From assembly GCA_013239625.1 (NCBI GenBank), contig MU053520.1, forward strand, positions 62,001-126,000: a DNA stretch of 64,000 nucleotides. Direction: 5' to 3'. Positions within the stretch are counted from its first letter, which is position 1, and each line of letters begins with the position of its first letter. Of the stretch, positions 1 to 58,012 are shown piece by piece. Source of the stretch: Lama guanicoe (Eukaryota). Made by a program: the position numbers and the translations under genes. Below the pieces are notes generated by a model, which did not search any database, was not told where the DNA came from, and saw only the letters and a program-made list of their open reading frames with translations.

Positions 1-1789
1 CTTAATGGTGACACAGCACTCACCCTTAGCCACTGTGCACTGTGCACTGTGCTGATACACAGAGCCCAGAATTGGATGACAGATCTTTGCCTGCCTGGTA
101 CAAATCTGCACTGTTCAATGAACTATATACCTTCTGGCTGATGGGGGCACAGTGGCTGGAAGTTCCTGAGACCTCACTACCAGAGGAGCTTGTAGGGAGC
201 ATGTGTCAGCTGCACCCTATCCTATGGGAGTATGGTCGATTCAGCTACCTTGAAGTCCAAGAATATCGCAGGTACAACACATATAATGTCCACTTCTATG
301 CTTCCTTTGCCCTTATGCTCTGGCCCAAACTTGAGCTCAGTCTGCAATATGACATGGCTCTGGCCACTCTCAGTGAGGACCTGACACAGCAATGGTACCT
401 GATGAGTGGGATAATGGCACCTGTGAAAAGGAGGAACATCATCCCCCATGACATTGGGGACACAGATGATGAACCATGGCTCCGGGTCAATGTATATGTG
501 GTCCATGATACTGCAGACAGGAAAAACCTAAACCTGAACTTTGTGTTGCAGCTTTATCAGGACTACTGCCTGATGGGTGACCAGAGCTTCCTGAGGGACA
601 TGTGGCCTGTGAATCTGGCCGTGATGGAATCTGAAATGAAGTTTGACAAGGACCAAGATGGACTAATTGAGAATGGAGGCTATGCAGACCAAACCTATGA
701 TGGATGGGTCACCACAGTCCCCAGTGCTTACTGTGGAGGATGGTGACTGGCAGCTGTGGCTGTGATGGTCTGGATGGCTGCTCTATGTGGGGCACCAGAT
801 GTCCAGGATAAGTTTTCTTCTATCCTTAACCAGGGCCAAAAAGCCTCTGAAAGACCACTGTGGATTGGCCGCTATTACAATTATGACTGCAACTCTCAGC
901 CTCAGTCCTTTAACATCATGTCTGACCAGTGTGCTGGCCAGTATTTCCTGAGGGCCAGTGGCCTAGGAGGAGACAGTGAGTTATTTTTTACCCAATACAT
1001 GGTCCAAGTTCTTCAAACTATCTTTGAGTTCAATGTCCAGGCCTTTGCAGAAGGGGCCATGGGGGCTATGAATGGGTGCAGCCCCATGGTGTTCCTGATA
1101 GATCCAGTGTCCAGTCTGAAGAAGTCTGAGTGGGTGTGGTCTATGGGCTGGCAGCCATCATCATCCAAGAGGGTCTAACCTGGGAGGGCTTCTAGACAGC
1201 CAAAGGCTGCTACTGTACTGTGTTGGAGCACCTGAGCCTGGCTTTCCAGACTCCTGAGGCATACTGCCAGCAGTGGATGTACCACTCACTGGCTTACATG
1301 CAGCCACAGAGCATCTGGGCCATTCAGCTGGCCCTACAGCAGCACCAGTATATAAAGGCCTCTAGGCCAAAAGCCAAACAGGGCACAGGACTAAGTGTGG
1401 GGCCCAAACTTGGACCAAAGGGAACCATGGCAAACCCATGGTGAACCCTCTGAACTGTGGAAAGGAGGTGCTAACAGCCCAGCCTCCAGGCTAGCATTTC
1501 CTCCTCCACCACCCCTACCCCACCCAGTCTCCTGCAGCCCTGAGCCACCAGAACAATCATGCCTTCCCTTCTCCCCACCCAAACACACCAGCAAAGATGG
1601 GTTGAGGGTGCCCCAAGCATGAGAATCACTTCTATCTTTCTTTCTTCACCCCATCCCCTCACTGAATGAATGCTCAAGGAGTTCCAGGTCCATTCACCCT
1701 GTGATTTATTCTCCCAGGCCCATTCATGATGTAGCAGACATACATGGATACAAATAAAAGACCCAGAAAACCAAAAAAAAAAAAAAAAA
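1..1789 (+). pseudogene. GBA2: Processed pseudogene of non-lysosomal glucosylceramidase (GH116 family), 3' portion; continues upstream of the window
   Basis: ORFs 42-746, 756-1178 and 1220-1444 translate to consecutive GBA2 C-terminal segments ([65 protein letters not shown]) with no introns. Premature TGA at 744-746, frameshift near 1077, further stops at ~1127 and ~1192. 3'UTR has AATAAA at 1753-1758 and an A17 tail at 1773-1789. Confidence 0.95.
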
Positions 1790-4912: not shown

Positions 4913-7900
4913 TCCAACCTAGCATAAGTAGTACAAACCCCTTCAATATAGTAACATTATTAGGAAAATGAGCATCAGAATGGTTAAAAATTTGCTCACT
5001 TGGTAAAGGTTTGAGAAAGAACTTGAAGCCATCTTTCTAATTCAGAGGATACATTCTATCTGCTGTACCAAATTACCTCTGTGACCAATATCTAAAAAAC
5101 AAAACATAATTGTCTTTTAATCACTGAAATTTTCACTACTGTTAAAGTAGTATATACCTGAGATTACTTGCATAATTTTATATATGTATTCAGTAACTTT
5201 GCATATATAAATAAACACCTACCATATGTGTCATTACATATTTCTATAAAGAGAAATGACAAAACTTGTTTTCATAGGGAAAACACCCTTGATATTTCAG
5301 AAGTCAATTATCATTTGTATAATGACTGTATAACCTTAAGTACTGATGATTACAAAGAAGTGGAAAGATCAAAGTTAGAGTTAGACAGATTCAAATTCAA
5401 ATCCTAACTTAGTGGCACTGATCAATTTGTTTAACTCCTCTGAGTTGGGCTACTCATCATACAGTATTAGTATAAAGACACAATTAGAGAATGGTGATCA
5501 GATATTTCTTTAAGAATGTTCTCATGTGGACTGAATTGCCTTCTCCTGGTGGAAAATAATGATTTTAAAGACTCAACTCATAGTAAAGTAGCAACTTTTT
5601 TTAAAAAGATAGCTCTCTACCTGTCCCTTCCCCCAGCCAGTCCTGTCCAGGGGAAAGTACAATGTGGAACCCTTATGTCTAAGAGATGACTTTGCTGTGC
5701 AAGAGTTTTTAATATCACCATCTATCTTACAACAGTACTTGACACACTGAGACACAGTTCACAATGACACAAGATACGGTATGGAGAACAGGCATTAAGG
5801 GAACTTTTATAAAGCCAGCATTAACAAAAAGAAAAGGCAAATCATTTTTTGTATCCCTGTATAGCTGGAGAGATAAATTCTAGAACCAGAGTATTCTGTT
5901 GGTCATGCTGTGCATTGTCTCAGGAAGGGGAGAAATTTTGCTTCTATGTAGCTCATTGTTCTCATGGAACAAGTGTGAAGGCAACTTTGTCACTGAAGGA
6001 AAAACCTGGCTACTAGGGCATCAGCAGTCTGAGTTTAGATGCAAGCTTTTTGCAAGAACTGTATAGTAAAGCCAGCCTTCCAAATTCAGGAGACCTCTAA
6101 GCCTGGAGAATATTGAAGCTCCTTCAGCCAGAGCAAGTCCTATGAGAAGTTCAGTACAATTATGGCCCCCTCCAGCCAGATGGGTGGGGGTGTTCAGATC
6201 CCTGATACTTCATTGCCTAGGAGCTCCATGTTAGTTACCAAAGGTAATTTAGTGAATTAAATTTGTTGCATCACAGACATAATTTCAAGCAACAGATGCA
6301 TAGCATCTACATCAATATTGTTGGACAAGATATCTTCCAAAATCTTACAACAACACCAAATAAGCAAGTATTTCTTTCACTGCCACACACAGTTCTTTAG
6401 GCTGTCTATGTACAAGAGGTTATAATCCGAACAAGTGCCACTTATGAATCCACTCAGTTACTACCATTCACTTCTTTAGAAAAATATAGTGACGTAGTGT
6501 TTATTTACTTGTTCATTCATTTATAAACCAAATATCTTCCCAAATGTTTGCGATGTCATGCACAAAATTATGCGCTGGGGGTACAAAGGTAGACAAAACA
6601 TCTCTGATTATGAAGTAAAAAAAAATTAGCATGCATGGCATATATATCTGGAGATCAAGTGTAACATGTATTAAAATAAAGTATTGTTTAAAAATCAGTA
6701 GACCTTAGACCCCATCGAAGAACATAAGCATTAGTATACATTAAATTTTTATAGCATATTTGGCTATTTAAATTAAGTTTTGGTTGTATATGGTGAACTT
6801 AAAAGTAGATAGAACAACATCTACCTATTTGGTGCCCTTTCCATTCACCTCTTCTAAGAATGCATAATATATACTGTCTATACTTTTTGTTAAATAAATC
6901 ATAAATACTTTGACCAATGAGTATGCTTTCAGTAATGCCATATTTTCAGTTAGTTTTCAGTTTTATATTACCAGGATTCTATTAATATATACAATACACA
7001 CACACACACATAAGTTACTGGCAGAATAAATGCTACCATTACTTAAGTGTCAATAATTAATTCAATTGTCCACCAAACAAAACTATTATCAGTTGTCCCA
7101 TTCTCTATTTTAGAGACCTAATTGGAAGCCCTTCAGTTTCATATTACAGTCAGTAGCATGTTGACTGAGTGAGGCCATATATTCCATATGGAACATCAGG
7201 GAACACTCAGTTCTGTTGAAATCAGGACCCTATAGTTTAAGCTCAAAGTACTTCTTTGGTTGAAAAAAAACATTCCATTTATTAAAACATAAGTTTAAAA
7301 AAATAATTCTTTGCACATGTGTCTCAAACACAGTGAAGGAGATAAGCGGTCCTCATTTAAAAGTCACACTCTTTTTATATTTATATCTTTTATTCCTGGT
7401 GCCTCTTTCTTCATGACTTCCCCCTAAAATAGTCTTAACTAGCTCTAGGCCACATGTATCTTATCTTTCTATTGCTCCCCCCTCCTTTTTTTTGTTTTTT
7501 GTTACTGTACTATACATTTATTTCCCTTTTGCTCCTTTCTCAATTTTTTTCTCTCCATTTAAAAGGAAAATAAAAGATAAATTTAGTAATGATAGAAAAG
7601 GTCTGGATGGGAGTGGGAAGCGAGGGAAGGATAAAGGAGGTAAATTTGATCCTAGTCTGGATGTCAGAGGAAGAAAGACTGGGGTCACTCATATGAATAT
7701 TACTGGTCCATAACAAAACATGTATTTTTTAAGACTTTTAGAAATGTTTTCATTTGACTAAGGATTTTAGAAATAACATTGAGCAAATGTTTGGTAGAAT
7801 TTAAAATTTACAAGTCTGGCTGAATTACTAATAACATACTGTACATTTGTCTCAGTTCACTGCCAGTGTGTTTGAAATTTTCCCAGTTCAAATTAAATGA

Positions 7901-16707: not shown

Positions 16708-17950
16708 GAAAGGCCAAGATGGCAGAGTAGAAGAACTCTTGTAACTCACCCTCTCCCACAAATGCACCAAGACTCACATCCACGAACCCACTCAGCTAAC
16801 CAGAGCACCTGTGGAACTCCGACAGAACATCGCCCTCTTCAAAGACAAAGATGCCAGAATTCTGGCAGGAGAAAAGGAAAAAAGAAAGAAGAAAAGGCAA
16901 AACAGTGTGGGACTGGTCCCACGGGGAGGGAGCAGCAAAGGAGGACTAGCGCTTGTTCACTAGGTCTCCACCTCTCCAATGGAGAGGCCAGCAGGAAGGA
17001 GGGGGTGCGTCCAAGGCTTGGATCTGTACAGAGTACCCCTTGACCAACAGAACTAAGTTAAATGGGCACAGAGGGTCCCCATGACACCCAGCCTGAGATG
17101 TGAGCCGGCAGCTGGGGGGAAGGGACAGGCTGCCTGAGCCAGGCGGAGGACTGGGGTGGCTACACTGAGAAAGCCCTGGGGGTTGTTGCGCACCATGGAT
17201 GAGTGAGTACAAAGGGCAGAACAACCTGGCCCCTCCATAAAACAACACAGCTGATGTGCTCTGGGGGGAAGGGTGACATATCCCCATCTCTGAAAACCCA
17301 CAGAAGATTTTCCTATGAAAAGAGGTGGGGATCATTCACAGCCACCATATCCTCTGGCACTTAGCACTCAAGCAGGGGCGGGGTCAAAATCTGAATCCCA
17401 GCCTAAGGGTTTAACAGCCTGAAAGGCCAGATAGAGACTTGTTTATAGCCTGAGACAGATGAGATCCTTCTGCCCTGGTCCCTCAGAGAACTCGCCTGCC
17501 AAGACAAACAAGGAGCTGAGATTTTGCACAGAGCAGGAGTGGGGCTGTTCTGCAGTCTTCCCTGAGCCTGCCTACAGGGTGCAGACTGTGGTGGAGTAGG
17601 CAGCTACAAGGAGCAATGGAGCCACCAGAGCCAGGAGAGGGCGGGTGGCCACCCGCCTTCTAGGCAGGAAGGCAGCACCTGACTGCAGTGCTGGGAGGAG
17701 GTGCTATCCACCCTCCTATATGGCCAATCTGCAGCATCTGACTGTGAAATCCTGAGAAGGAATGACCTGCCTGCCCACAGTGAAGGAGAGCAGCATTTGA
17801 CCTCAGGGGTGGGAGGGGGTGTGATCTGCTTGTCTGCAGGCACTGGAAGCAGCACAGATTACAGCGCCAATGGAGGGCCTCTGGAATTACCAAGCTGAGT
17901 TCATGAAACAGGGCAAAGACAGGAAAACTTCTCATTAAGAGAGCACAGTC
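16708..17950 (+). promoter_or_regulatory. L1 internal Pol II promoter region (GC-rich 5'UTR) with YY1-type motif
   Basis: CAAGATGGC at 16715-16723 at the element 5' end, GC box ggggcgggg at ~17374, and a sharp rise in GC over the flank. Confidence 0.65.
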
Positions 17951-17999
17951 TCAGGAGAACACTACCAACACCTGCTTTTTTTTTTAAATGTGTTTTTAC

Positions 18000-18690
18000 C
18001 TGTTCTATTTTCTATAGCCTTTTTAATTTTTACTTTTTAAACAGTTCTGTATGCTTCCAGTTTTAACCCCTTTAAATGTTTTCTTCTAAAATATTTTTGT
18101 TATTATTATTTTAAAAATTCAACCTCATTTCATTTTTATTTCCCTTGGTTTTGATCTCCTGTTATTGATTATACACAGGTTGCATTTTTTTCTATTTTCC
18201 CCTTTTTTAAAGGTTTTTAAAAGACATCTCAACCTGATTGCTATTCTGCTTAAACTTGATCTTCAATTATTAATTAGACACTGTTTCAAACCTTTTTATC
18301 TCGCTTCTTTTAAAATCTTTTAGTTTATCTTTTTTTAATCTGTTCTATTTTCTATTACCTTTTCAATTTCTAATTCCTAAACAATAGTATATGCCTCTAC
18401 TTTTAATTCCAATTAATTTTTTTATTAAAGTATTTTTATTATTATCTTTAAAAATCCACTTGAATTCATTTTCATTTCTTTTGGTTTTGATCTCCTGTAA
18501 TTGATTATACACAGGTTTCAAATATTGTTTTTGATCTTCCTTCCTTTTTTTTTAAGGGTTTTTAAAAAGACGTTGCAACTTGATTGCTACTCTGATTCAA
18601 ATTGCTCTTCTATAATTCCCATACAGTTCTCAAACCTTTTTTCTCCCTTCTTTTACAATTTTATTTCTCTCTTTCTCTCTCTTTTTTAAG
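18000..18690 (+). repeat. Two diverged tandem ~340-bp T-rich units in the L1 5'UTR
   Basis: 'ctgttctattttctat' starts at 18000 and 18340. 'ttggttttgatctcctgt.attgattatacacaggtt' recurs at ~18145 and ~18481. Confidence 0.85.
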
Positions 18691-18787
18691 TTTTATTCCT
18701 ACATAGGCACTAGATAGATAAATACGTAAGCTCATTAAAGACCACAATAGATAACTGATACTCCTTAAGCCACAGTGCCAGAGATAT

Positions 18788-19670
18788 ATGAGTAAGATGA
18801 AGAAGCAGAGGAATCACTCCCAATTAAAAGAGCAATTGTCTGAAAAACAATGAATGAAATAGACATTGATAGCCCACTAGATCAAGATTTCAAAAAGGAG
18901 TGGTCAAAGTACTGAAGGAACTAATAGAGATAGTGTTTAGAGATATAAAATATGTCAAAATGAAATTGAAGCTATAAAGAGCCAAGTAGAATTGGTAAAC
19001 TCACTGGCTGAGATGAAAACTGATCTAAAGGCTGTACAAAACAGACTAGATAATGCAGAGGAATGAATAAGTGACCTAGAAGACAGAAAAACAAAATGCA
19101 CCCAATCAGAACAGCTAAGGGAAAAACAAATAGAATCTAATGAAAGCAACATAAGGGACCTATGGGATAATATAAAGCATGCCAATATTCACATAATAGG
19201 GATTCCAGAAGGGGAAGAAAGATCAAAGGTGATTGAAAAGGTATTGGAAGAAATCATGACTGAAAACTTCCCAAACTTAAAGAAGGAATAAAATATCCAA
19301 GAACAGGAAGCTCAGAGGTTCACAAAAAGAAAGAACCCAAACAGAGCCACACAAAGACATAATCAAGAAGGCAAGAGTCAAGGATAAAGAAATTATCCTA
19401 AAGGCAGCAAGAGAAAATCAAAGAGAGCTACAAGGGGACCCCCATAAGACTGTCAGGAGGTTTCTCTACACAAACACTAAAGGCCAGAAGTGAGTGACAA
19501 GATATATTCAAAGTCCTGAATGAAAAGAATGATGCAGCTTAGGATACTTTATCCAGCAAGACTATTCTTTAAGATAGAAGGAGAGAGAAAGACTTTCACA
19601 GACAATCAAAAACTAAAAGTTTAGCAACACTAAACACATGCAAAAAGAAATATTGGAAGGTCTACTTTAA
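18788..19670 (+). pseudogene. Disrupted L1 ORF1
   Basis: ATG at 18788 (MSKMKKQRNHSQLKEQ), then ORF1 motifs (DLWDNIKHANIHIIGIPEGEE, ENFPNL, ILYPARL) broken by stops and frameshifts. Confidence 0.85.
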
Positions 19671-20079
19671 ATAGAAAACAAGCAGGATGCTACAGAAATG
19701 AGGACCTCACAACTGGAAAGGTGATAATTCATGAATTACAAACAAAATAAACACAAAATTGGAAAAGAAGACATCTAAATCATTAAGAGTGGGAGAGAGT
19801 AGCAAGAAAATATAGAGTATTTTTTTCTTTGTTTTAAATTTGTTTTCTGTTCTCAGTCAGATGTGTTTGAGGTTATATTACTATCAGTTTAATAAAAAAC
19901 AGTTATAGTAATGGGCTAATAGACTTACAAATAAAAGGTAACTATAAGCCAAAAACTTACAAGGGAGTCACAAAAACTAAATGAAATCCTTGATAATACA
20001 AAGGAAAATTACCAAACCACAAAAGGAAGAAGAAAGGAACAAAGAGGATATACCAAATCAACTGAAAAATAAATTCAAA

Positions 20080-23000
20080 ATGGCAATAAGCACACAACTA
20101 TCATTAATTACTGTAAATGTTAATGGACTAAGTGCTCCAGTCAAAACACATAGAGTGGCAGACTGGGTAATAAAGCAAGAACCTTCAATATGCTGCATAC
20201 AAGAGACCCATTTTAGGGAGAAGAACACACATAGATTGAGAGTGAAAGGATGGAAAAGGATATTCCATGCAAATGGAAAAGCCAAAAAAGCAGGTGTTGC
20301 AGTACTGATTTCAGACAAAATAGGCTTTAAAACAAAGGCCATAAAGAAAGATAAAGAACATTTTTATAATGATTAAAGGAAGAATACAAGATGAGGATAT
20401 TACAATCGTTAATATATATGCACCCAATATAGGAGCACCTAAGTACATAAAACAATTACTAACAGAGATAAAGAGGGATATTGACGGGAATACAATCATA
20501 GTTGGAGATTTTAACACCACATTAACACCACAAGACAGATCTTCTAGACAGAAAATAAATAAAGCAACAGAGAAATTAAATGATACAATAGAAAAATTAG
20601 ATTTGGTGGAAATTATCAGAGCATTACACCCCCAAAAATAGGATAAACATTCTTTTCAAGTGCACATGGAACATTTTCTAGGATTGATCATGTACTTGGG
20701 CACAAAAGAAATCTCAACAATTTTTAAGAAGATAGAAATTATCTCAAACATCTTTACTGACCATAATGCCATGAAGCTAGAAATCAACTACACAGAAACA
20801 AAGGAGAACAAAATGAAAGTATGTAGATTCAGCAACATAGTATTAAAAAAAAAGGGGGTCAGTGATGGAATCAAAGTTTAAATTAAAACATATTTTGAGA
20901 CAAATGAAAATGAAAGCACAACCACACAAAATTTATGGACACAACAAAGGCAGTGGTAAGAGGGAAGTTTATGGCAATACAGGCCTTCTTCAAAAAAGAA
21001 TACTCTCAAATAAACAATCTAAACCATCAGCTAAAAGAATTAGAAAAAGAAGAGCAAAAAAACCCACAAAAGGCAGCAGAAGGAAGGAAATAACAATGAT
21101 TAGGGAGGAAATAAATAAAATACAGACTAAAAAACAAAATAGAAAATAAATCAATCAAACCAAAAGCTGTTTTTTTGAAAAGGTAAATAAAATCTACAAA
21201 CCTCTGGCCAAACTCACAAAGAAGAAAAAAGAGAGAGCACAAATTACCAAAATAAGAAAGGAAAACAGAGAAATTACAACAAATAAAATACAAATACAGA
21301 ATATCATATAAGAATATTATGAAAACTATATGGAACCAAAATGGATAACCTAGAGGAGATGGACAAATTTCTGGAAACATACAGCCAACCAAAACTGAAC
21401 CAAGAAGAAACTGACTACTTGAAGAAACCAATCACTAGAAATGAAACTGGACTAGCAATTAAAAAAAACCTCCTGTCCTGTAAAAGTCCAGGACAAGATG
21501 GCTTCACCAGGAATTATACCAAACATAACAAGAAGAACTCATACCAGTCTTTCTCAAACTCTTCCAGAAGATTGAAAAGAAGGGGATACTCCCAAACTCA
21601 TTCTATGATGCCACCATCACCCTGATATCAAAACCAGGCAAAGACACTACCAAAGAAGAGAATTAAAGGCCAGTATTACTGATGAACATAGATGCAAACA
21701 TCCTCACCAAAATATTAGCAAATAGAATCCAACAACACATGAAAAAAGTTTTTACATCATAACCAATGTGGTTTATCCCAGGGACACAAGGGTGATTCAA
21801 CATACAGAAATCAATCAATGTAATACATCACATCAACAAGAGAAAGGACAAAAACCACATGATCGTCTCAATCGATGCAGAAAAAGCATTTTATAAAATT
21901 CAACACCCATTTATGATAAAAACTCTCACCAAGAGGGAATATATCTCAACCTAACAAAAGCTATATATGACAAACCTATAGCCAGCATAATACTAAACAG
22001 TGAAAAACTCAAAAGCTTCCAACTAAAATCTGGGACAAGACAAGGCTGCCCACTATCACCACTCCTATTCAACATAGTCCTGGAAGTCCTAGCCACAGCA
22101 ATCAGGCAAGAGAGAGAAATAAAAGGGATCCAAATTGGAAAAGAAGAGGTAAAAGTGTCACTATATGCTGATGACAAGTTAGTATGTATAGAAAACCCTA
22201 AAAGGTTCACACAAAAACTAGTAGAGCTGATCGAAGAACTCAGCAAGGTAGCTAGTTACAAGATTAATGTACAAAAATCAGTTGCATTTCTTTAAACTAA
22301 TGATAAATCAACAGAAAAAGAAAGTAAAGAAACAATCCCCTTTAAAATAGCACCCAAAGTAATAAAATATCTAGGAATAAATCTAACCAAGGTGGTGAAA
22401 AAAATTATACACAGAAAACCATAAACCATTGATGAAGGAAATTAAAGAAGACTTTAAAAAATGGAAAGATATCCCATGCTCCTGAATTGTAAGAATCAGT
22501 ATTGTTAAAATGGTCACACTGCCCAAGGCAATCTACAGATCTAATACATTCCCTATCAAATTATTATGGAAATATTTCACAGAACTAGAACAAATCATAA
22601 TAAAATTTATATGGAACCATAAAAGACCTAGAATTGCCAGAGCATTACTGAAGAGAAAGAAAGAGGCTGGAGGAATAACTCTCTCAGACCTCAGACAATA
22701 CTTTAGAGCTACAGTAATCAAAACAGCATGGTATTGGTACAAAAACAGACATACGGACCAATGAAACAGAATAGAGAGCCCAGAAATGAATCCACAAACA
22801 GTTGGTCAACTAAACTTCAACAAAGGAGGCAAGAATATACAATGGAATAAAGACAGTCTCTTCAGCAAATGGTGTTGGGAAAACTGGACAGCAGCACATC
22901 AATCAATGAAGCTAAAACACTTCCTTACACCATACACAAAACTAAACTCAAAATGGATCAAAGACTTAAACATAAGACAAGATACAATAAACCTCCTAGA

Positions 23001-23899
23001 AGAAAATGTAGGCAAAACATTACCTGATATACATCTCAAAAATGTCCTAGGACAGTCTACTCAAGCAATAGAAATAAAAGCAAGAATAAAAAAATGGGAC
23101 CCAATGAAATTTACAAGCTTCTGCACAGCAAAGGAAACCATAAGTAGAACAAAAAGACAACCGGAATGGGAAAAAATTTTTGCAAATGAAACCAACAAAG
23201 GCTTGATCTCCAGAATATATAAGCAGGTCATACAACTTAGTAAGAAAAAAGCAAAGAACCCAATCCAAAAATGGGCAGATGACCTAAACAAGCAATTCAC
23301 CAAAGAAGAAATATAAATGATCAATAGACTCCAGAAAAAAATGTTCAATATCACCAATTATCAGAGAAATGCAAATCAAAGGTACAATGAGGTATCACCT
23401 CACACCATTCAGTATGGCCATCATTCAAAAAACCATAAATGACAAATGCTAGAGAGGCTGTGGAGAAAAGAGAACCTTCCTACACTGCTGGTGGGAATGC
23501 AGTTTGGTGCAGCCACTGTGGAAAACATTATGGAGATGCCAGAAAAGACTAGGAAAAGACTAACCATATGACCCCAGAATCCCACTCCTGGGACTATAAC
23601 CAGAAGGAACCCTACTTCAAAATGTCACCTGCACCCCAATGTTCATAGCAGCACTATTTACAATAGCCAAGACATGGAAGAAGCCTAAATGTCCATCAAC
23701 AGATGAGTGGATAAAGAAGTTGTATATTTATACAATGGAATACAATTCAGCCACAAAAACCAACAACATGATGCCATTGGCAGCAACATGGATGTTCCTG
23801 AAGAATGTCATTCTAAGTGAAGTAAGTCAGAAAGAGAAAGGAAAATACCATATGAATTCGCTCATATGTGGAATCTTAAAAAAAAAAATTACAAAATAG
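20080..23899 (+). pseudogene. Disrupted L1 ORF2 (endonuclease/reverse transcriptase)
   Basis: Fragments NVNGL...CCIQETH, NIYAPN...IIVGDFNT, LFSKWCWENW and MFIAALFTIAKTW lie in shifting frames. Confidence 0.92.
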
Positions 23900-25257
23900 A
23901 AACAGACTCATAGACATAGAATAGAAACTTCTGGTTGCCAAGGGGGCATGGGATGGGAAAAGACTGACTGTGATTTCAAAATGTAGAATAGATAAACAAG
24001 ATTATACTGTATAGCACAGGGAAATATATACAAGATCTTATGGTAGGTCACAGGGGAAAAAATGTGACAATGAATATTTATATATATGTTCATATCTAAC
24101 TGAAAAATTGTGCTCTTCACTTTAATTTGATACAACATTGTAAAATGATTATAACTCATTAAAAAATGTCTAAAAAATCCAAAATTATTGTTTACAGCAG
24201 AGGAGTTTCAAGAGTTTAATACCTCCTATTTCTATGAGACTTCTGTGACCATGAATTAAAATTTGTTTATTTTTCTTCTGTTGATCTGTCTTGTATCTAT
24301 TTTATTATTAGTCCAGCTGGTAGTACTCAAGAAGTCTATGCGTGGGAGTGGAATTTTCCCCATCTCCAATACAACGACAAAGTAATTGTCTGGATAGTAA
24401 GTTCTTAAAGTTATTCACTATTTAACTATCTTTTACTGATATTTTTCTCTTGTAAACAGTAAAAAGTAAAGTCTGTGAAGTATGAAAAATGCCAAAAGGA
24501 CTGCAAGTGCCTGGAAAGATCTCCAATTACATGAAATGTGAACAAGCCTATTTATGAATAAATTCCATGCTTAAAAATATCTTGATTGCTTAATTACATT
24601 TATTGTTCAGGAAATACTTAATTTGTTCCTACTTTTTATTAATATAAGACATATAACAAATATTGGAGATAGCCAGTTTTCCCACAATGAATAGATATAA
24701 TTCTACCCCAAAGTCAATGAACCCAAAGTTTTAATTAGTTTGTACAGTCTGATCTTGAAAAAGTTGCAATTTTCATTAGTGTTTTGGACATTTTCAAAAT
24801 TTCTTAAAACCATGTATACAATTATTATGCTGTAAGAAATTAGAGTCTAAGTTGCCTCCAGCAATAAAGAGATCGCTGGACCCCAGAGAACAATTGATAA
24901 GTAACCATAGTTGCAAAACTGTGAAGCCCAACAAAAATTAGCCTTAATTAGGCTTTTATCGAATTACAGAATACAACTTATTTTCCTAATAAACAGAGCA
25001 CATTTTCATAGGTTTGGTAATTTATTGTTCTACTTACCTTTTAGTTTTTTCAATTTTATTTTATTAAGCTATGATATTTTTATTCTCCAAAATAATAGTT
25101 TCCTTTTCTAAGGTACATCCCCAGAAGCAATTACTACCTTAATTAGCTTTGACTCGTTAATCTCTCCCTCTTCCATTTTGCTACCAAGTGGAGATGTACT
25201 CCCACCCACTTGTATAGCATAATACAAATATCACAATAAATTTATGTTGATTTCTTC

Positions 25258-25905
25258 ACCTTACTTTTTGAATTAAAATAATAGACTTTATTTTTAGAGA
25301 TTTTAGCAAAATATATTGCAAGGTATAGAAATTTCCCATATAATCACTGCCCCCCTCACATGTATTTCTTCTCCCATTATCAACATTCCCCACCATAGTG
25401 GTGTATCTGTTACAATTGATAAATCTACATTGAGACATCATTATCAGTCAATGTCCATAGTTTATATTAGGGGGTCACTCTTGGTGTAGTGCATTCTATG
25501 AATTTGAACAAATTTATATTGACAAGTATCCTCTATTGCCCTATCTTAAAAAATAGTTTTATGGCTCTAAAAATTCGCTATGGTCCACCTACACTTACCT
25601 CTCCTCCTCGTAGCTCATGGCAACTACTCATCCTTTTTGTTGTCTCCATATTTTTGCCTTTTCCAGAATGTCATATAATTACAATTATAATTATACACTT
25701 TGTAGCTTTTACAGATTGACTATTTCACTTAGTACTATGCATTTAAGTTTCTTCCATAACATTACATGACTTGATACCTTTTTTAAACTGTTGAATGATA
25801 TTCCATAGTTTGGATTTACCAGTTTCCCCATTCTCATAGTGAAGGTTATTTTGGTTACTTCAAAATTTGTCAATTATGGATAAAGCTGATAAAAGCATAT
25901 ATGTG
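25258..25905 (-). mobile_element. L1MC-type 3' end
   Basis: 'tagactttatttttagag...cattccccaccatagtggt...ccttttccagaatgtcatata' is the same family as, but far more diverged from, the arms at 32.3-32.7 and 35.7-36.1 kb. Confidence 0.75.
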
Positions 25906-29067: not shown

Positions 29068-30676
29068 TGTGTGTATATGCCACATCTTCTTTATTCATTC
29101 ATCTGTTGATGGACCCTTGGGTTGCTTTCATATCTTAGCTATTGTAAATAATACTACTGTGAACATTAGGATGCATGCATCTCTTCTGTTTAGTTTTCTT
29201 TTTTTTTCAGATATGTACCCAGGAGTGGAGTTGCTGGATCATATTGTTGTTTTATTTTTAGTTTTCTGAAAAATCTCCATACAATTTTCCACATTGGCTA
29301 GACCAATTTATATTCCCACCAACAGTGTGTGAGAGGTTCCTTTTCTCTACATCCTCATCAACATTTGTTATTTGTTTACTTTTTGATAACAGCCATTTAG
29401 ACAGATGGGAGATGATATTTCATTGTAGTTTTGATTTGCATTTGCCTGATGGTTAGTGATGTTGAGCATCTTTTCAAGTGCCTATTGGACATTTGCATGT
29501 CCTCTTTGGGAAAAAATAGTCTATTCATATCTTCTGCTCATTTATTATTATTATTATTTTTTATTTTGTTGTATGAGATGGCTTATATATTTTGAATATT
29601 AACCTCTTATCAGTCATACCACTTGCAAATAATTTCTCCTATTCAGTGTTGTCTTTTCATTCTATTAATGGTCTTCTTTTCTGTGCTAAAGCTTTTAAGT
29701 TTAATTAAACCCCATTTGTTTATTTTTGCCTTTATTTCCTATGCTTTAGGAAAAAGATAATATATACAGCTATAATTAATGTCAAAGAATAGTCTGCCTA
29801 TTTTGTCTTCTAGGAGTTTTATAGTTCCTGTTCTTACATTTAGGCTTTTAATCCACATTAAATATTTTTATTTTTGTATATAGTATTAAAGAATATTATA
29901 ATATCATTCTTTTACACATAGCTGTTCAGTTTTCCAGCACCACTTATTGCAGAGACTGTCTTTTTTCCACTGTATATTCTTGCTTCCTTTGTCAAACATT
30001 AGTTGACTGTGGGTGTGTGGGTTTATTTCTGGGCTCTCTATCCTGTTCCATTGATCTGTCTTTTTTTGTGTCAGTTTTATACTGTTTTGATTACTATAGC
30101 TTTGTAGGAAAATTCAAAATTAGGAAGTATGATTCCTCCAGCTCTGTTCTTCTTTCTCAAGATTGTTTTGACTATTCAGGGTCTTTGTATTTCCATATAA
30201 TTTTTTTAAATTGTAATTCTCTGAAAAATGTCATGGAATATTACTTAGCTATAAAAAAAGAATAAAGATTTTGCCATTTGCAACAACATGGATGGACTTG
30301 GAGGGTCTTTTGCTAAGTGAAGTAAGTCAGACAGAGGCAGATAAATACTGTATGATATCACTTATATGTGAATTCTAAAAATACAATGAATTGTGAAGAG
30401 AACCAGAAAGAATCAAACTCAAAGATATAGAGAACAAACTAGCAGTTACTAGTGGGAATAGGGATGTGGGACAGGATGATAAAAGGGTAGAGGAAAAGAG
30501 GTACAACCTATTTAGTATAAAATTAGCAACAAGGATATATTGCATCATGTAGGAAATATAGGTAATATTTTATAATAACCACAAATAGAGTACAACATTT
30601 ACAAATTTTAAATTGCTATTTGTACACCTGTAGCTTATGTAATATTATACATCAACTATACTTCAATTAAAAAAAT
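29068..30676 (+). mobile_element. 5'-inverted (twin-primed) LINE-1
   Basis: Minus-oriented ORF2 at 29068-30232 joins a plus-oriented ORF2 end, 3'UTR and A tail at 30233-30676. The two pieces are contiguous in L1 order. Degenerate TSD. Confidence 0.88.
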
Positions 30677-30889
30677 TAGGCTGAGTTGTTAAAAAAATAG
30701 AAGATGATAATATCTATCTGGAGAATATTTTGTTTTGTGTGCCTTTGAATGTTCATTCTGCCTGTGTTGAAAGGAATGTTCTGTTTATGACTGTTAGCTC
30801 AATTTGATCTAAAGTATAGTTCAAGTCCAACATTTCCTCACTGCTTTTCTGTCTTGATGATTTATTCATTATTGAAAGTGAGTTATTGT

Positions 30890-31578
30890 GAGGCAGAAGA
30901 ATTGATCAGTGAGCTAAAGACAGATTAGTGGAAATAACTACATGAGAACAGATAAAAGGAAAAAAATTAAAAAGGAATGAGGATAGTTTACAAAAACTCT
31001 GAGACAACATGAAGCACTGTAATATTCACATTATAGGGGTCCCAGAAAGAGAAGAGAGAGAGAAAGGACTGAGAAAATTTTTGGAGAGATAATAACCAAA
31101 CAATTCCCCAATTTGGGAAAGGAGATAGTCACCCAAGTTCTGGAAGTGCAGAGAGTACCACACAGAATCAACCCAAAAAGGAACACATCAAGGCACATAG
31201 TCATCAAATTCGCAACAATTAAGGATAAGGAGAAAATACTAAAATGAGCAATAGGATAGCAATGAATAATATACAAGGGAACTCCCATAAGGTTATCAGC
31301 TGATTTTTCACCAGAAACTCTACAGGCCAGAAAGGACTGGCACAATATATTTAAAGTGATGAAAGAGGGAAACTTACAACCAAGAATACTCTATCCAGCA
31401 AGGCTCTCATTCAGGCTTGATGGAGAAATCAAAAGCTTCACAGATAAACAAAAGCTAAAAGATTTCAGCACCACCAAACCAGCTTTACAACAAATGTTAA
31501 AGGAATTTCTCTTTTCATCAAGCCATAAGAAAAGAACAAAAAGAAGAAAAAGATAAAAAAGAGAGTGAGACCTACAAA
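30890..31578 (+). mobile_element. L1 ORF1 fragment, followed by a minus-strand ORF2 fragment (31579-31860)
   Basis: ORF 31356-31556 LQPRILYPARLSFR..GEIKSFTDKQKL...KPALQQMLK, and minus ORF starting CSWIGRINNIKMATLP. Confidence 0.85.
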
Positions 31579-31865
31579 AGATTGCTTTGGATGTTTGGGG
31601 TCTTTTGTGGTCCCTTAGAAATATTGGAATTGTTTGTTTTAGTTCTATGAGGAGTGTCATGAGTGTTTTGATGGGGGTTGCTTTGGATCTGTGGGTCACA
31701 TTGGGTAGTGTGGCCATTTTGATATTATTGATTCTTCCAATCCAAGAGCACAAGATATATTTCCATTTCTTTATGTCATTTTGGTTTTCAGAGTATAAGT
31801 AATCTCCTTGTTATGTTCATTTCTAGGTATTTTGTTGTTTTTATTGTAATGGAAATGTTTGCGCC

Positions 31866-32723
31866 AGTTATAAAATTCTGGTTTTTGAAGTGAAAAAAAA
31901 AAAGTGAATGAAGGGCCACAAATGGCAAAATATCCTTCTTTTTAAAGAGTGAGTTGTATTCCATTTTATATATATATATATATATAATCTCCATTATCTA
32001 TTCAACTATTGATGTGCACTTAGGATGCTTCCATATCTTGGCAATTATAAATAATGTTGCTGTTAATATTAGGGTGTGTGTATCTTTTTGAGTTAATACT
32101 TATTTGTGGTTGGCTTTATTCCTTTGATAACTATGTAAATTGAAAAAGCTAAAGCTCTAAACATTCTTAGAAACAATGAACAGTACATATTTGTAAATTA
32201 AAAAATATATATGTGCAATAAATAAATGATCAAGCCATGAAGCACATAGAAGAAACGTAAAAGACATATTACTAAATGAAAGAAGCCAGTCTGAAAAGGC
32301 TACAAACTGTACAATTCCAACTAAGTGACATTCTGGAAAAAGCACAGCTACAGAAACAACAAAAAGATCATGGTTTCCAGTCATCTGGGGAGAGAGAAGG
32401 AGGAATGAATATATGGAGCACAAGAGATTTTTAGGGCAATGGAATTATTCTGTATGATACTATAGTGGTGGCTGCATGTCATTATGCATTTGTCAAAACC
32501 CATAGAATGTACATCAAGAATAAATCCTAATGTAAACTATGGTCTTTTATAATAATGTGCCCATGTTGGTTCATCGATTGTACCAAATATGCCACACTGA
32601 TGAGGGATGTTGAGGGTAGGGGAGTACATATGTGTGGGTGGGGAGGGCTATGTGTGAACTCTCTGTATTTTCTGCTCAATTCTGTTGTGAGCCTGAAACT
32701 GCTCTAAAAGAATAAAGTCTATT
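31866..32723 (+). repeat. Left arm of ~0.85-kb inverted duplication (composite of unique sequence, L1 ORF2 fragment and L1MC 3' end)
   Basis: Reverse-complement match to 35678-36487 across several unrelated sequence junctions. Confidence 0.92.
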
Positions 32724-32739
32724 TTTTTTTAAAAGTGAG

Positions 32740-33220
32740 GTATTGAAGTAGGAGAAATTATGAGCTGAAATTATCTCTCTTGGCCCTGAACTTTGCCAAC
32801 TTGGGGAAGGGTTGATGTGGGTAAAGCAAAAAATTTCTTCTATCTCCAATGCATCCAAACTCATATTTTTTTGTTCCAACAGTGTACTGGATTTCTCCAT
32901 TGGAAACCTGAACTTCTAGATAGACTTTCATGTGTGAGTGATTGTCCGAGACAGGGTTCTCCAGGGTCTCCTGGATCATGGCTGAGAAGAACTGGAGCTA
33001 GTTCATGGACCACTTCAGGGTCAACAGCCAAGATCAAGGTCAGCAAACCTAATACTCAATGTGCAAGTGGGCAAGGCTCCTCCTGGGTCCTATGGCATAT
33101 GGTGCTGGATCCCATAGTTCCCTCAAGGCACTTTAGTCTGTAAATAGATGCTAAAATTTTGTTATTTGGAAGGGGGCAAGAACATGCCTTATTCAGCCAT
33201 ATATTTGATGTCACCTCTCT
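32740..33220 (-). mobile_element. Probable 5'UTR of an old L1M element
   Basis: Ends 'tattcagccatatatttgatgtcac', resembling the reverse complement of old L1M 5' termini (gtgacatc...atggc). Confidence 0.5.
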
Positions 33221-33929
33221 TTCTCAGTTCTTTTGTTTTATTCATCAGAGTTGTGTTTTCTTCATAGGTCGTGTACATATTTTATTCGAGTTTCACCTGA
33301 ATATTACATTTTCAAGAATGCTAATGCAAATGATATTGTGTTTTAATTTCAAATTCCAGTTATTCTTTGTTGACATATATGAAAGCAATCGGCTTATGGA
33401 TAGTAACCTTGTTTCCTGCAACCTTGCTATAACAGCTTAATAGTTCCAGGATGTTTTTGTTGATTCTTTTTAATTTTATTTACAATAGTCAAAGTCAACT
33501 CTGAGGAAAGACAATTCTATTCCTTCCTTCCCAACCTGAATAGCTTTTATTTTCTATCTTATTGTTACAATGACTTCCAGTATGGTGTTGGAAAGGAGTG
33601 GTTAGAGGGAATATTTTTCCTTGTTCCTGGTCATAGATGAGTATCTCAAAATTACCTAGTGAGAAATATAAGAAATACAGAGTCCACTTTACATCTCAAA
33701 ACTCTCCTGAAGAACAAAAAGGAAGATTTTAAGACATGAAGAGAGGGATTATATCCTTATAAGGAAAAGTTTAATAGTACAGAGTTATGAGTTATCCCCA
33801 AATTCATTTAAAAATCTATCAGCGTTACTTCTTTTTTGGTATTAAGAAATTATTTTAAATTTTGTCATAAGAATAAACATGAGCTTTCCTCAATACAATT
33901 ATCCAAGATAATCATTAGAAATGATTTTG

Positions 33930-34260
33930 ATTCATTTATTCTGCTTAACAAAATACCATAGACTGAATGTCTTATAAATAGTAGAAAATTATTTCTCACA
34001 GTTTTATAGGCAGGGGAGTCTAAGATCAAGGGCTGGTAGATTTGATGTCTGGTGAAGAACCACCTCCTAGATAATTGTCTTCTAACAGTGTCCTCACATG
34101 GTGGAAGCAGCAGCGTAAATGCACTAATTGCATTCATGAGGACTCCACCTTTATGACAAAATCACCTCCTTAAAAGACCCATGTCCTAAAACCATCAGCT
34201 TAGGAGTTAGGATTTCAACATATAATTCTTGGGGGAACACAAACATTGAGACCATAGCAC
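33930..34260. mobile_element. MLT1 (MaLR) LTR
   Basis: 'aacaaaataccatagactg...ttatttctcacagtt...aagatcaagg...tcctcacatggtggaag...acacaaacattgagaccatagca'. Confidence 0.8.
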
Positions 34261-35224
34261 AAATGTAATTAAAATGTGTTACTGTTGGAGTACACAGGAA
34301 AAGGAAAAGGTGGCCCCAGAGATGGCATGAAATGTAAGACTAACTCCCTGACAGAGAGCCTAACACTAGTAATTCACATTTATAATTTTCACATCCCCGT
34401 TACAAATACTTTGAATTCAGTGGATAAGAAATACTAGCAAATCACAGGAGAATGAAAAAAACTCTAGGACAGTGTTCACATCAGAGTGCCTCTGTTTTAC
34501 ACACATTTGCCTTAAGCCATAGCTTTTTTTTTAACCTAACTTGTTGTCCTTTGCTGCTTATCAAATCAACAAAGATAAATCAACATACACATTGCCATTT
34601 TCCCTTCAACTTCTCTTTAGTTCTTTAGGTCTAAAAATGTGGGAAAGAGAGGGATGGAGAGATGAAGGAGTAATAGAGCTTCTATTTAACAACCCAGGAG
34701 CTAATATTTAATGTCATCCTAACTTAAGTGTCCTTTAATTTAAAAACAAAATCATCATCATTATCATAAAAGAGACAATTGTAAGGGAAAAGTTGAAGAA
34801 ATTAATTAGACATTTGTAACTAAAAATCAATACTATTAACATAGTTAACATAGCTGATTACTGATGTAACTCTCTCTCTAAGACTCTAAAGGACAATAAT
34901 AAATTAGAAAACACCATAAAGAGAGAACAAAGAGTAAAAAATACAACAGAATGCTAGAGATACAGTCTTAACCATGGGCCTGATTTGGGCTGTCTTGCTG
35001 GGATCCTGAAAAGCCTTTAAAAAAAGAAACTGCTCATTACTCTTTGGGGTAATTTGTGCTGGTTTTTGAGACTCTCAAGGCTCCCAAGTCATTTATCAAA
35101 TTGATATTTGTTTTCTACTGTCATTTTAATAAGTATGTGTGCCTGTTGGGGCTACAAATATATACATATATACATTTCTGGAAGACAACAGTTATTGTTT
35201 CTCTTTATAGACTAAGAAAATCAA

Positions 35225-36580
35225 GACACAATAGTCAAAAATTGGAAGTAACATAAGTGCCTATCAACAGAGAAGTAAATTAAAAATGTTGTATATATAT
35301 GTATATACACACATATATAAATAATAAATATATAAATATATTCATAAATTTTCTTTCCTTTTTTCTTTTTCTTTCCTTAAAAAAGGAAGGAAATTCTGAC
35401 AAATGCTGCAACATGGATGAAGCTTGACAATATTATGCTAAGCAAAATAAACCAGTCACAAAAGGACAGTTGCTGTAAGAGACCACTTATGTGGGGTACC
35501 TTGAGTATTCAGACTTATAGAGACAGAAGGGAAATGGTGGTTGCTAGGGACTAAGGGGAGGTGGAAATGAAAAGTTAGTGATTAGTGGATACAAAATTTT
35601 AGTTGAAGAAGTTACTAAAGTTTTGAAGTTGGGTGATAGTGATGGTTGCATAACAATGTGATGGTTCTTTTTTTTTTAATAGACTTTATTCTTTTAGAGC
35701 AGTTTCAGGCTCACAACAGAATTGAACAGAAAATACAGAGAGTTCACACATAGCCCTCCCCACCCACACATATGTACTCCCCTACCCTCAACTTCCCTCA
35801 TCAGTGTGGCATATTTGGTACAATTGATGAATCAACATGGGTACATTATCATCAATCAAGTCCATAATATACATTAGAGTTCACTCTTAATGTTGTACAT
35901 TCTATGGGTTTTAACAAATTCATAATGACATGCAGCCACCACTATAGTGTCATACAAATAATTCCATTGCCCTTAAAATCCCTTGTGCTTCATTTATTCA
36001 TTCCTCCCTCCCTCCTTCTATCCAAACCCCTGGAAACCATGATCTTTTTGTTGTTTCTGTAGCTGTGCTTTTTCCAGAATGTCATTTGGTTGGAATCACA
36101 CAGTTTGTAGCCTTTTCAGACTGGCTTCTTTCATTTAGTAATAAGTCTTTTAAGTTTCTTCTATATCTGAACATTTAGAGTTTTAGCTTTTTAAACTTAC
36201 ATAGTTATCAAAGGAATAAAGCCAGCCACAATATAAGAATTAACTCAAAAAGATGCATACACCCTGCTATTAACAGCAACATTATTTATAATTGCCAAGA
36301 TATGGAAGCATCCTAAGTGCACATCAATAGTTGAATATATAATGGAGATGCAGTATATATATATATATAGATAGATAGATAGATAGATATATAATGGAAT
36401 ACAACTCACCCATAAAAAAGAAGGATTTTTGCCTTTTGCAGCCCTTCATTTACTTTTTTTTTCAGTTCAAAAACCAAAACTTTAACTATCTCTGACAGTT
36501 ATAAAATGTGAAGGTTCTTAATACACTTAAAATGGTTAAAATGGTAAATTTTATGTTATATATATTTTATAACACTTGAA
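35225..36580 (+). mobile_element. L1MA/MB-type 3' end, split by the inserted inverted copy
   Basis: 'gcaacatggatgaagcttga...gatggttgcataacaatgtga' (to 35669) resumes 'tacacttaaaatggttaaaatggtaaattttatgttat' after 36519. Confidence 0.8.
35670..36504 (-). mobile_element. Right arm: retroposed-looking copy of 31866-32723 with poly(A) and 15-bp TSD
   Basis: T10 run at 35668-35677. TSD aatgtgatggttctt (35655-35669) / aatgtgaaggttctt (36505-36519). Confidence 0.8.
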
Positions 36581-38019
36581 GAAATTAGTAGATATGAATC
36601 TCAGTTCACAGACTGTGACATACAAGAAATTTAATTCTATTTCAAGACCTAATTGAACTAAGGTGGCAAAAAAAATTGTCTCAAATACTTAATCTTACCA
36701 GCCCCTTTCCCTCCTTTGGTTCAAGTTTCCCAGGAGAGGAAGCTCACATAGAATCAAGTGTTTTAGGATGTGAGGACCTACCTTGTCTTCAACAGCTCTA
36801 TCAGGTCAATGTCTGCTGAGATATCTCTTAATCAAGGACCATGCATTTTCCAATTAAGTAGTCTCTTTTTTCACATATAAAACTGGCTTAAAAGAATCTC
36901 TGTGAGTCTGGTATATCTGAGGTCTTGTTGACTACCTAGAGAAGACTCAGGGCCCACAAGCAGGTCCTAAACCCTCTCAGCTCTTAAGTTCCTTAAATGT
37001 CTCTAGGTTCTTGCTCCCTCTCTTAGGCTTATGAAACTCTCATTATCTCTTCTCCATTTTTTATCCTTTTCCAATTCTCAAAAAATCCTTTATCTTTTAA
37101 TCTAAATAGTACTGGGAATAGTTTTGTGGAAAGGTCTGTTTTTTCCCTTTTGTTTTCTCCAAACATTTGTGTAGTCTCTGGTCCCTAAATGTTAAACATT
37201 TAGAAGTTAAAAATTAGAGTCTATCAGCCTTTTTTATGGTTTATAGTGTTATAATCCATTTCCAAGATAAAGAGTGAGAGGAATGGAAATGTTTGAAGGA
37301 GAGAGAATGGGAGAAATAACTAACATATAAGTAATATTCAACTACACAAAACAATCCAGTAATATTGAGTAATTTTTGCATTTTTAAATGCAAAGTAACC
37401 ATTCCAAACTGTCCAAAAGTTCAGAGCTGCAGAAGTCTTCATGCTGTACTTAAAGACTAAGGTGCCTTGCGTACCAGAAATCATTCTTCTCTTGCTCATT
37501 CTCTTTCCCTTTCTTCTCTCTGCACTTCTCCAATTTCTTTGGCTTTCTATCCCTTGCAGGCACTGTGCAAAATGTATTTTAAAAAGTAATTTTAAAAGGT
37601 TAGACATTCTAACAAAAACTGTAATATGCTTCTTTGGAAAAATAATGCAAAAACTCATTTTCTATAGTAGATGGCCCACATATAACACAGGTGGAACATA
37701 TATGAGTGAAGTATTGAGCCAGAATTTTATAATATTAAAAACTTCCAAGATTTTTTTCAGGTGAAATGAATAGCTTCATTTTACAGAAAAGGAAACAATG
37801 ACTCTGAAATTAAATGTGTTTGATAACTTTATTTCAGCCATTCAGCTATTCTGGTGACATCTTATTCCAGTGCAGAACTTTCTGTCCTCAAATCTCATAC
37901 TCCTGAGGAAATTCTGTGTTTCCATTCACTAACACTCACAATTTCATAAATCTGTTTAACATTTAATGCCTCTGAAATCATTTAAAAAATTTCTCCAGGC
38001 CCACAGCTATCAAATCTAA

Positions 38020-57817: not shown

Positions 57818-58012
57818 AAGATGACAACTAAAAATTCTACCTAATGTCTGAATACTTTACTTTTGAGAAGATGACAACTAAAAATTCTACCTAATGTCTG
57901 AATACTTTACTTTTGAGAAGATGACAACTAAAAATTCTACCTAATGTCTGAATACTTTACTTTTGAGAAGATGACAACTAAAAATTCTACCTAATGTCTG
58001 AATACTTTACTT
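57818..58012 (+). repeat. Perfect 50-bp minisatellite, 3.9 copies
   Basis: Unit aagatgacaactaaaaattctacctaatgtctgaatactttacttttgag starts at 57818, 57868, 57918 and 57968 (last copy 45 bp). No mismatches. Confidence 0.98.

What the first reader, a model, noticed from the sequence alone, without database searches (positions are those of the whole stretch)
31866..36519. Composite non-coding segment apparently retro-copied 3 kb from its source, forming an inverted repeat
Seen: 31866-32723 and 35678-36487 are reverse complements across a patchwork of unique sequence, an L1 ORF2 piece with a TA run, more unique sequence and an L1MC 3' end. The junctions are shared, so these are not independent TE insertions. 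The right copy interrupts an L1MA/MB 3' end, has a 15-bp TSD (35655-35669 / 36505-36519, one mismatch) and a TTCTT/AA nick site. Its A tail begins 7 nt after the AATAAA (32711-32716 in the left copy), where the left copy has a T run instead. Established: TSD, poly(A) and a TTTT/AA-like site are hallmarks of L1 target-primed reverse transcription. Inference: an RNA ending at this old L1MC poly(A) signal was reverse-transcribed and inserted next to its own locus. Alternatively, both copies belong to an undescribed non-autonomous composite retroposon.
Basis: partly seen in the sequence, partly recalled or inferred. Interest (0 to 1): 0.72.

Follow-up and report, generated by a model that had tools for sequence, protein, structure and literature searches.

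The report
L1-made copy beside its likely source
An 0.8-kb patchwork of old repeat fragments was pasted into this mammal's genome by the LINE-1 copying machinery and sits, reversed, only 3 kb from a second copy that is probably its template, although such copies normally land far from their source; which copy came first is not proven.

Summary
The inverted pair is real: 31,865-32,723 and 35,678-36,487 share all junctions and differ at 55 of 763 aligned columns, too many for a mis-assembly. The right copy has clear L1 insertion marks: a 15-bp TSD, a TCTT/AA nick site and an 8-A tail. The left copy has no TSD, so it is the natural template.

Direction is not proven. The left copy starts 4 nt from the broken end of another L1 piece, as a filler insertion would. 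The tail begins only 7 nt after AATAAA. No genome was held, so copy number and empty sites remain untested.

Odds: local RNA retrocopy about 0.42; distant source feeding both copies 0.25; L1-nicked but DNA-templated local copy 0.18; dispersed family 0.08. It works like a class 1 templated insertion but lies next to its template. The scan had no look-alike DNA; one unchecked note describes a local template switch in a shark.

The parts
31865..32723 (+). Left copy of the unit, the probable template; no TSD of its own
   Evidence: TSD search score 7, reached by 1221 of 2000 shuffles
31865..31876 (+). 5' 12-mer of the left copy, repeated in the same strand at 36,496-36,507
   Evidence: only two occurrences in the window; 0 of 1238 real tiles and 2 of 5000 shuffles give a match this long
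31918..32100 (-). Antisense fragment of an L1 ORF2 end / 3' UTR start inside the unit
   Evidence: 70% to positions 7059-6898 of the window's full-length L1
32101..32218 (.). Unassigned middle piece; its last part belongs to the 75-nt stretch that the right copy lacks
   Evidence: no significant match to six in-window L1 references (11-90 of 100 shuffles as good); hits only the right arm
32219..32723 (+). Old L1M 3' end (L1MC-type, label recalled) with AATAAA at 32,711-32,716
   Evidence: 67% to the independent copy at 25,785-25,350; motif position
31578..31860 (-). Antisense L1 ORF2 fragment that ends 4 nt before the left copy begins
   Evidence: 3 of 4 reference alignments end at 31,860; the fourth scored only 13
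32724..32741 (+). T-run, A4 and following 7-mer behind the left copy: either the native L1M terminus or recipient flank
   Evidence: 1 of 1499 A-run followers matches, the one behind the other L1MC-type copy; local-alignment nulls 174 of 3458 and 15 of 231
35655..35669 (+). TSD copy next to the tail; first-strand nick site TCTT/AA
35670..35677 (-). 8-A tail of the right copy (T8 on +), 7 nt after the AATAAA
35678..36487 (-). Right copy, forward (first-strand) segment; lacks 75 nt of the left copy
36488..36495 (.). 8-nt loop between forward segment and inverted tip; no source found in the window
36496..36507 (+). Inverted tip: 9 nt plus 3 nt shared with the TSD (microhomology)
36505..36519 (+). 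Second TSD copy (14 of 15 identical)
35228..36580 (+). Host L1M 3' end interrupted by the right copy (L1MA/MB-type, label recalled)
   Evidence: 35,228-35,300 and 35,380-35,502 match the window's L1 3' region; continuity across the insert rests on recall, since no in-window reference covered it

Best explanation
One L1-mediated insertion. L1 endonuclease nicked TCTT/AA at 35,669 inside an old L1M 3' end. The T-rich end primed on the A tail of an RNA from the neighbouring left locus that ended at the old L1MC-type AATAAA, and ORF2p copied about 850 nt. The second target end primed near the RNA's 5' end through 3 nt of microhomology and made a short inverted tip (or the cDNA end folded back on itself), and repair left a 15-bp TSD. 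The result is a dead 0.8-kb inverted repeat with a 3-kb spacer. Shown in the sequence: shared junctions, TSD, nick site, tail, inverted tip, no TSD on the left copy. Inferred: that the template was RNA, that it came from the left copy, and that nearness reflects capture of a transcript close to its own locus rather than luck.
For: TSD of 15 bp, in the 14-16 bp peak for L1 insertions (PMC2912911). Nick site one base off TTTT/AA. Inverted tip with 3-nt microhomology; about 70% of 5'-inverted L1s have 2-5 nt, and a short internal duplication at the inversion is a known twin-priming outcome (17% of inversions, median 22 bp; 10.1101/2024.08.27.596794). The copied unit stops just after an AATAAA, which an RNA template explains. 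The left copy has no TSD, and it keeps 75 nt that the right lacks; the match to the independent L1MC-type copy reaches 17-27 nt into that stretch. Weakly, the likeness between the left copy and that independent copy may continue past the copied unit (1 of 1499 A-run followers), which would make the left the native site.
Against: The left copy starts 4 nt from the broken end of an unrelated L1 ORF2 piece; a randomly truncated cDNA should not know that boundary. The 8-nt loop at the right copy's 5' end does not match the sequence upstream of the left copy or any donor in the window. The tail starts 7 nt after AATAAA, against 10-30 nt in class 1 templated insertions, and is only 8 A. The inverted tip is far shorter than typical internally primed segments (median 0.54 kb). 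Uniform insertion would land within 3 kb with probability about 3e-6 (genome size assumed 2.1 Gb), and human retrogenes show no tendency to lie near parents (PMC8793726). The post-tail likeness is post hoc and not significant by alignment score (174 of 3458 tiles; 15 of 231); the 75-nt stretch alone is not significantly like the outgroup copy (360 of 2000). Derived changes do not give a direction (19 left, 13 right, 6 unpolarised; p 0.38). No transcript was shown.
Confidence: 0.42

Rival explanations
1. Distant source, two local products. An RNA from a third locus was inserted at the right site by ordinary L1 retrotransposition. The left copy is a second copy of the same cDNA, or an early DNA-level inverted duplicate, used as filler at a nearby break, joined through TT microhomology to a T-run.
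For: It explains why both ends of the left copy coincide with the ends of the insert, why it abuts a broken L1 piece, why it has no TSD, the T-run in place of a tail, and the unmatched loop. Local inversions and inverted duplications at ORF2p-cut sites are reported in cells (PMC11702581 passages), and inverted duplications are a common human variant class (277 events, median 284 bp; PMC12350158 passages).
Against: It needs two events or one complex event and an unseen third locus. The right copy's 75-nt loss must then be later than the copying. The weak post-tail likeness of the left copy to an independent L1MC-type copy points to a native left site.
Confidence: 0.25
2. L1-started, DNA-templated local copy. 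ORF2p nicked and primed at the right site, but the T-rich end switched to the A-run at the end of the nearby left copy and copied DNA (strand-annealing type templated insertion), closing with a snap-back. No RNA from this locus is needed.
For: It explains nearness directly and keeps the TSD and nick site. Templated insertions of neighbouring DNA in L1 events are known (22 cases), and insertions holding templated genomic DNA were seen after L1 induction. An unchecked note describes a similar switch over 1.1 kb in a shark (e1-7858584). No splice or other RNA-only mark was found.
Against: The reported templates are typically under 250 bp and within 15 bp of the site, not 850 bp at 3 kb. The left copy's T9 run is not reproduced in the right copy. 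The 5' coincidence with the L1 break stays unexplained.
Confidence: 0.18
3. Both copies are independent members of an undescribed non-autonomous composite retroposon with a fixed 5' end.
For: Both copies begin within 1 nt of each other, as full-length copies of one RNA would.
Against: The left copy has no TSD or A tail. Only two copies occur in 64 kb, so adjacency would need a high copy number. Passages of a camelid repeat survey hold no 'composite' or 'L1M' family (0 hits, PMC8605555). No Rfam match in 32,001-36,300. The scan has no look-alikes.
Confidence: 0.08
4. Orphan 3' transduction: a read-through transcript of the full-length L1 at 16,720-24,175 (+ strand) ran to the AATAAA at 32,711 and was inserted 5'-truncated. 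This is a variant of the best explanation that names the promoter.
For: The L1 lies 7.7 kb upstream in the right orientation; orphan transductions are a known class (48 in PMC12350158).
Against: Ten other AATAAA and 13 ATTAAA lie between. That L1 is 75-82% identical to the window's other L1 copies, so it may predate an event with 7.6% divergence. It does not explain local landing.
Confidence: 0.04

Closest known systems
Class 1 templated sequence insertions (TSIPs; Onozawa and Aplan 2016, PMC5110952; parts 1-2 of 4 read)
   Same: Non-genic patchwork template, TSD, L1 endonuclease-type site, AATAAA followed by an A tail.
   Different: TSIP donors are described as distant; here the probable donor is 3 kb away. 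Signal-to-tail distance is 7 nt, not 10-30; tail is 8 A, not 10-40; the event is old (7.6% divergence) and not known to be polymorphic.
Twin-primed 5'-inverted L1 and mRNA retrocopies (Kojima 2010, PMC2912911, part 1 and passages; bioRxiv 10.1101/2024.08.27.596794, section 4 part 1)
   Same: Inverted 5' segment from the same template, 3-nt microhomology with the TSD, short internal duplication, 15-bp TSD.
   Different: The inverted part is only 9-12 nt plus an unassigned 8-nt loop, so a cDNA fold-back fits equally.
Templated insertions and local rearrangements at L1 insertion sites (passage; PMC11702581 passages)
   Same: TPRT hallmarks combined with a duplicated piece of nearby genomic DNA.
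   Different: Reported templates are mostly under 250 bp and within 15 bp, and accompany L1 sequence from the active element; here 850 bp at 3 kb with no young L1 sequence.
RNA-templated double-strand-break repair in cis (Jalan et al. 2025, PMC12065846, passages)
   Same: A locus's own transcript is written back into DNA at that locus.
   Different: That pathway is L1-independent and leaves whole-intron deletions; here there is an extra inverted copy with TSD, tail and L1 nick site.
Retrocopy-parent spatial co-localisation (PMC10733166, passages)
   Same: Suggests that insertion is partly biased towards the parent's nuclear neighbourhood.
   Different: That study analysed interchromosomal pairs at 250-kb resolution and excluded same-chromosome insertions from its polymorphic set; it does not address kilobase-scale landing.

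Membership tests
Class 1 TSIP / L1 trans-mobilised retrocopy | TSD of at least 5 bp | tested here: met
   15 bp, 14 identical; 1 of 2000 shuffles
Class 1 TSIP / L1 trans-mobilised retrocopy | Insertion at a 5'-TTTT/A-like site | tested here: met
   TCTT/AA, one mismatch
Class 1 TSIP / L1 trans-mobilised retrocopy | Untemplated tail of 10-40 A | tested here: inconclusive
   8 A beyond the TSD, 10 with the two inside it; old tails shrink; left copy has T9-A4
Class 1 TSIP / L1 trans-mobilised retrocopy | AATAAA 10-30 nt upstream of the tail | tested here: not met
   7 nt
Class 1 TSIP / L1 trans-mobilised retrocopy | Donor at a distant locus | not testable with these tools
   No genome held; the only known paralogue is 3 kb away
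Twin-primed 5'-inverted insertion | Inverted segment from the same template next to the 5' TSD with microhomology | tested here: met
   12-mer at 31,865 and 36,496, last 3 nt inside the TSD
Twin-primed 5'-inverted insertion | Inverted segment fully templated up to the inversion junction | tested here: inconclusive
   8-nt loop has no source in the window
Orphan L1 3' transduction | Full-length L1 upstream in the same orientation | tested here: met
   16,720-24,175, 7.7 kb upstream
Orphan L1 3' transduction | Transcript can reach the transduced end from the L1 | tested here: inconclusive
   10 AATAAA and 13 ATTAAA in between; activity at the time unknown
Non-autonomous composite retroposon family | Each copy has its own TSD and A tail | tested here: not met
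   Left copy has neither
Non-autonomous composite retroposon family | Many dispersed copies | not testable with these tools
   Two copies in 64 kb; no genome held
RNA-templated DSB repair (L1-independent) | Scarless repair or whole-intron deletion at the transcribed site, no TSD | tested here: not met
   Extra copy with TSD and tail; the 75-nt gap has no GT-AG ends

The most novel reading that the evidence does not exclude
L1 ORF2p can capture a non-coding transcript while it is still near its own locus and insert it within kilobases of the template. Such local retrocopies would form an overlooked class of short inverted or direct repeats, filtered out of retrocopy screens as tandem or segmental duplications, and this locus would be a germline fossil of it.
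Probability: 0.25. Interest if true: 0.7.

Novelty: new variant of a known kind. Interest (0 to 1): 0.4.

Why it matters
The standard L1 cycle sends RNA through the cytoplasm, so retrocopies should land without regard to their source (established knowledge; retrogene data agree). A copy with full L1 hallmarks 3 kb from its template has odds of about 3e-6 under uniform insertion. If it is the product of local capture, it points to a nuclear route for trans-mobilisation and to a way of making inverted repeats, and it suggests a simple genome-wide screen. As it stands it is one dead event in repeat-rich DNA with no sign of function, and two less surprising explanations remain open.

Tried and rejected
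Mis-assembly: rejected by 7.2% mismatch and several indels between the arms. Independent TE insertions: rejected by shared junctions. TSD around the left copy: none (1221 of 2000 shuffles as good). A decayed TSD of the L1MC-type element inside the unit: not significant (254 and 770 of 2000). Middle piece as an L1 ORF2 fragment: no match to six references. Left 3' flank as a known in-window L1 piece: none of three references (24-99 of 100). Splice acceptor at the unit's 5' end with the loop as an upstream exon end: no + strand GT donor within two mismatches upstream, and the pyrimidine tract is average (52% of 1974 sites as good). The 75-nt gap as an intron: no GT-AG ends. Stable hairpin at the right 5' junction: -0.9 kcal/mol, z 0.75. 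Direction from derived changes: 19 vs 13, p 0.38. Staggered-break inversion of the spacer: disfavoured because the insert is flanked by direct repeats in a host element of one orientation (host continuity recalled). Rfam: 0 matches in 32,001-36,300. Whole genome not held. Copy number, junction-spanning contigs and empty sites from public runs remain unmeasured. Paper searches for a described local retrocopy: 0 papers, 1 irrelevant paper, nothing on the point in the listings; the library lacks most subscription journals. PMC11727581 (part 1 of 7) and PMC11195612 (passages) gave nothing on distance to source. No supplements were opened; the supplementary note on transductions and pseudogenes of 10.1101/2024.08.27.596794 is closed and may bear on local events.
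Full report
Setting. The window is AT-rich mammalian DNA dense in L1. Unchecked notes on other pieces of the same genome call it alpaca-type or camelid; the young L1 3' ends look camelid to me (recalled). No whole genome was held. Of 24 public runs listed, 14 hold 0.68-0.75 of the sampled words of 31,700-36,700; they carry five organism labels and eight study codes. So the region exists in several related organisms, but that share does not show that each has both arms.

Observation. The two arms align end to end in opposite orientation. Over 31,878-32,723 there are 708 matches and 55 mismatches (K2P 7.6%), several small indels, and a 75-nt stretch missing from the right copy. The unit is a patchwork: about 50 nt of A/T-rich sequence, an antisense L1 ORF2-end fragment, an unassigned middle piece, and an old L1M 3' end that has a 67-68% relative at 25,258-25,785. 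The junctions are shared and the non-L1 pieces have no other good match in the window. One copy therefore derives from the other or both from a third. At 5e-9 per site per year (rate from a passage of PMC8605555) the split is about 8 million years old; at recalled rates of 1-2e-9 it is about 19-38.

The right copy is an L1 insertion. It has a 15-bp TSD found nowhere else in the window, a TCTT/AA nick site and an 8-A tail. New here: the first 12 nt of the left copy recur at 36,496-36,507 on the same strand, that is inverted relative to the rest of the insert, and their last 3 nt are the first 3 nt of the TSD copy. No real tile of the window (0 of 1238) and 2 of 5000 shuffles give a match this long. 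This is the anatomy of twin priming with a short internal duplication (PMC2912911; 10.1101/2024.08.27.596794), though the inverted part is unusually short and a cDNA fold-back would look the same. An 8-nt loop between the tip and the forward segment has no source in the window. I put about 0.9 on L1 involvement.

What was the template? The left copy has no TSD, keeps 75 nt that the right lacks, and ends at an AATAAA, which favours it as the source. One post hoc test hints that its likeness to the independent L1MC-type copy continues behind the copied unit (1 of 1499 A-run followers), but alignment-score nulls give 5-6% (174 of 3458; 15 of 231). Against this, the left copy begins 4 nt after the broken end of an antisense L1 ORF2 piece, so both of its ends coincide with the ends of the insert and with breaks in the flanking repeats, as expected of a filler insertion. 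The tail starts 7 nt after the signal, short of the 10-30 nt of class 1 templated insertions (PMC5110952). Polarising substitutions with the outgroup copy gives no direction (19 vs 13, p 0.38). No RNA-only mark such as splicing was found.

Weighing. A retrocopy landing within 3 kb of its source has probability about 3e-6 under uniform insertion, and human and fly retrogenes fit a uniform null (PMC8793726), with only a modest bias towards nuclear neighbours (PMC10733166). A local template therefore implies either rare luck or a local route: capture of a transcript near its locus, or a switch to nearby DNA as in templated insertions. My odds: local RNA retrocopy 0.42, distant source with two local products 0.25, L1-started DNA-templated copy 0.18, dispersed family 0.08, read-through from the upstream L1 0.04, other 0.03. 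These are judgements, not computed values.

After the event. Mismatches are unevenly spread (clustering p 0.03, 0.05 and 0.22 by three measures). The inner 147 columns have 2 mismatches against 53 in 616 elsewhere (Fisher p 0.001, boundary chosen after seeing the data). This may be gene conversion between the arms and would make the age an underestimate.

Comparison and novelty. It works like a class 1 templated insertion or orphan retrocopy with a 5' inversion. It fails two marks of that class as defined (signal distance not met; distant donor untested and probably not met), so I file it as a variant, not a plain member. It is not L1-independent RNA-templated repair (PMC12065846 passages). 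My searches found no paper describing a germline retrocopy within kilobases of its source, within a library that lacks most subscription journals. The scan has no look-alike DNA and no note with these words; one unchecked note reports a local template switch by a Penelope element in a shark.

Verdict. Copy number and orthologous empty sites, the two decisive tests, remain open. Interest 0.4.

Noticed in passing
window 1-1,789: Broken, intron-less coding stretch matching glycosyl-hydrolase family 116 (Pfam PF04685, E 2.5e-65 and 1.5e-28) with an A tail near 1,773-1,789: a processed pseudogene, GBA2-like by recall.
   Followed up: partly
window 16,720-24,175 (+): Full-length decayed L1 with 5' UTR, ORF1 and ORF2 remains; used as in-window reference.
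   Followed up: partly
window 29,082-30,690: 5'-inverted L1: antisense part covers L1 positions 7004-5883 and the sense part resumes at 7016, a textbook twin-priming structure.
   Followed up: no
window 57,818-58,012: Perfect tandem array, 50-bp unit, 3.9 copies, 100% matches: a recent expansion or an assembly feature.
   Followed up: no
window 32,577-32,723 and 35,678-35,824: Inner ends of the two arms are much more alike than the rest (2 of 147 vs 53 of 616 mismatches); possible arm-to-arm gene conversion.
   Followed up: partly
window 32,735-33,636: Spacer begins with what looks like an antisense L1M 5' UTR (recalled) and an antisense old ORF2 piece (33,285-33,607, 58% to the in-window L1); their relation to 31,578-31,860 is unresolved.
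   Followed up: partly
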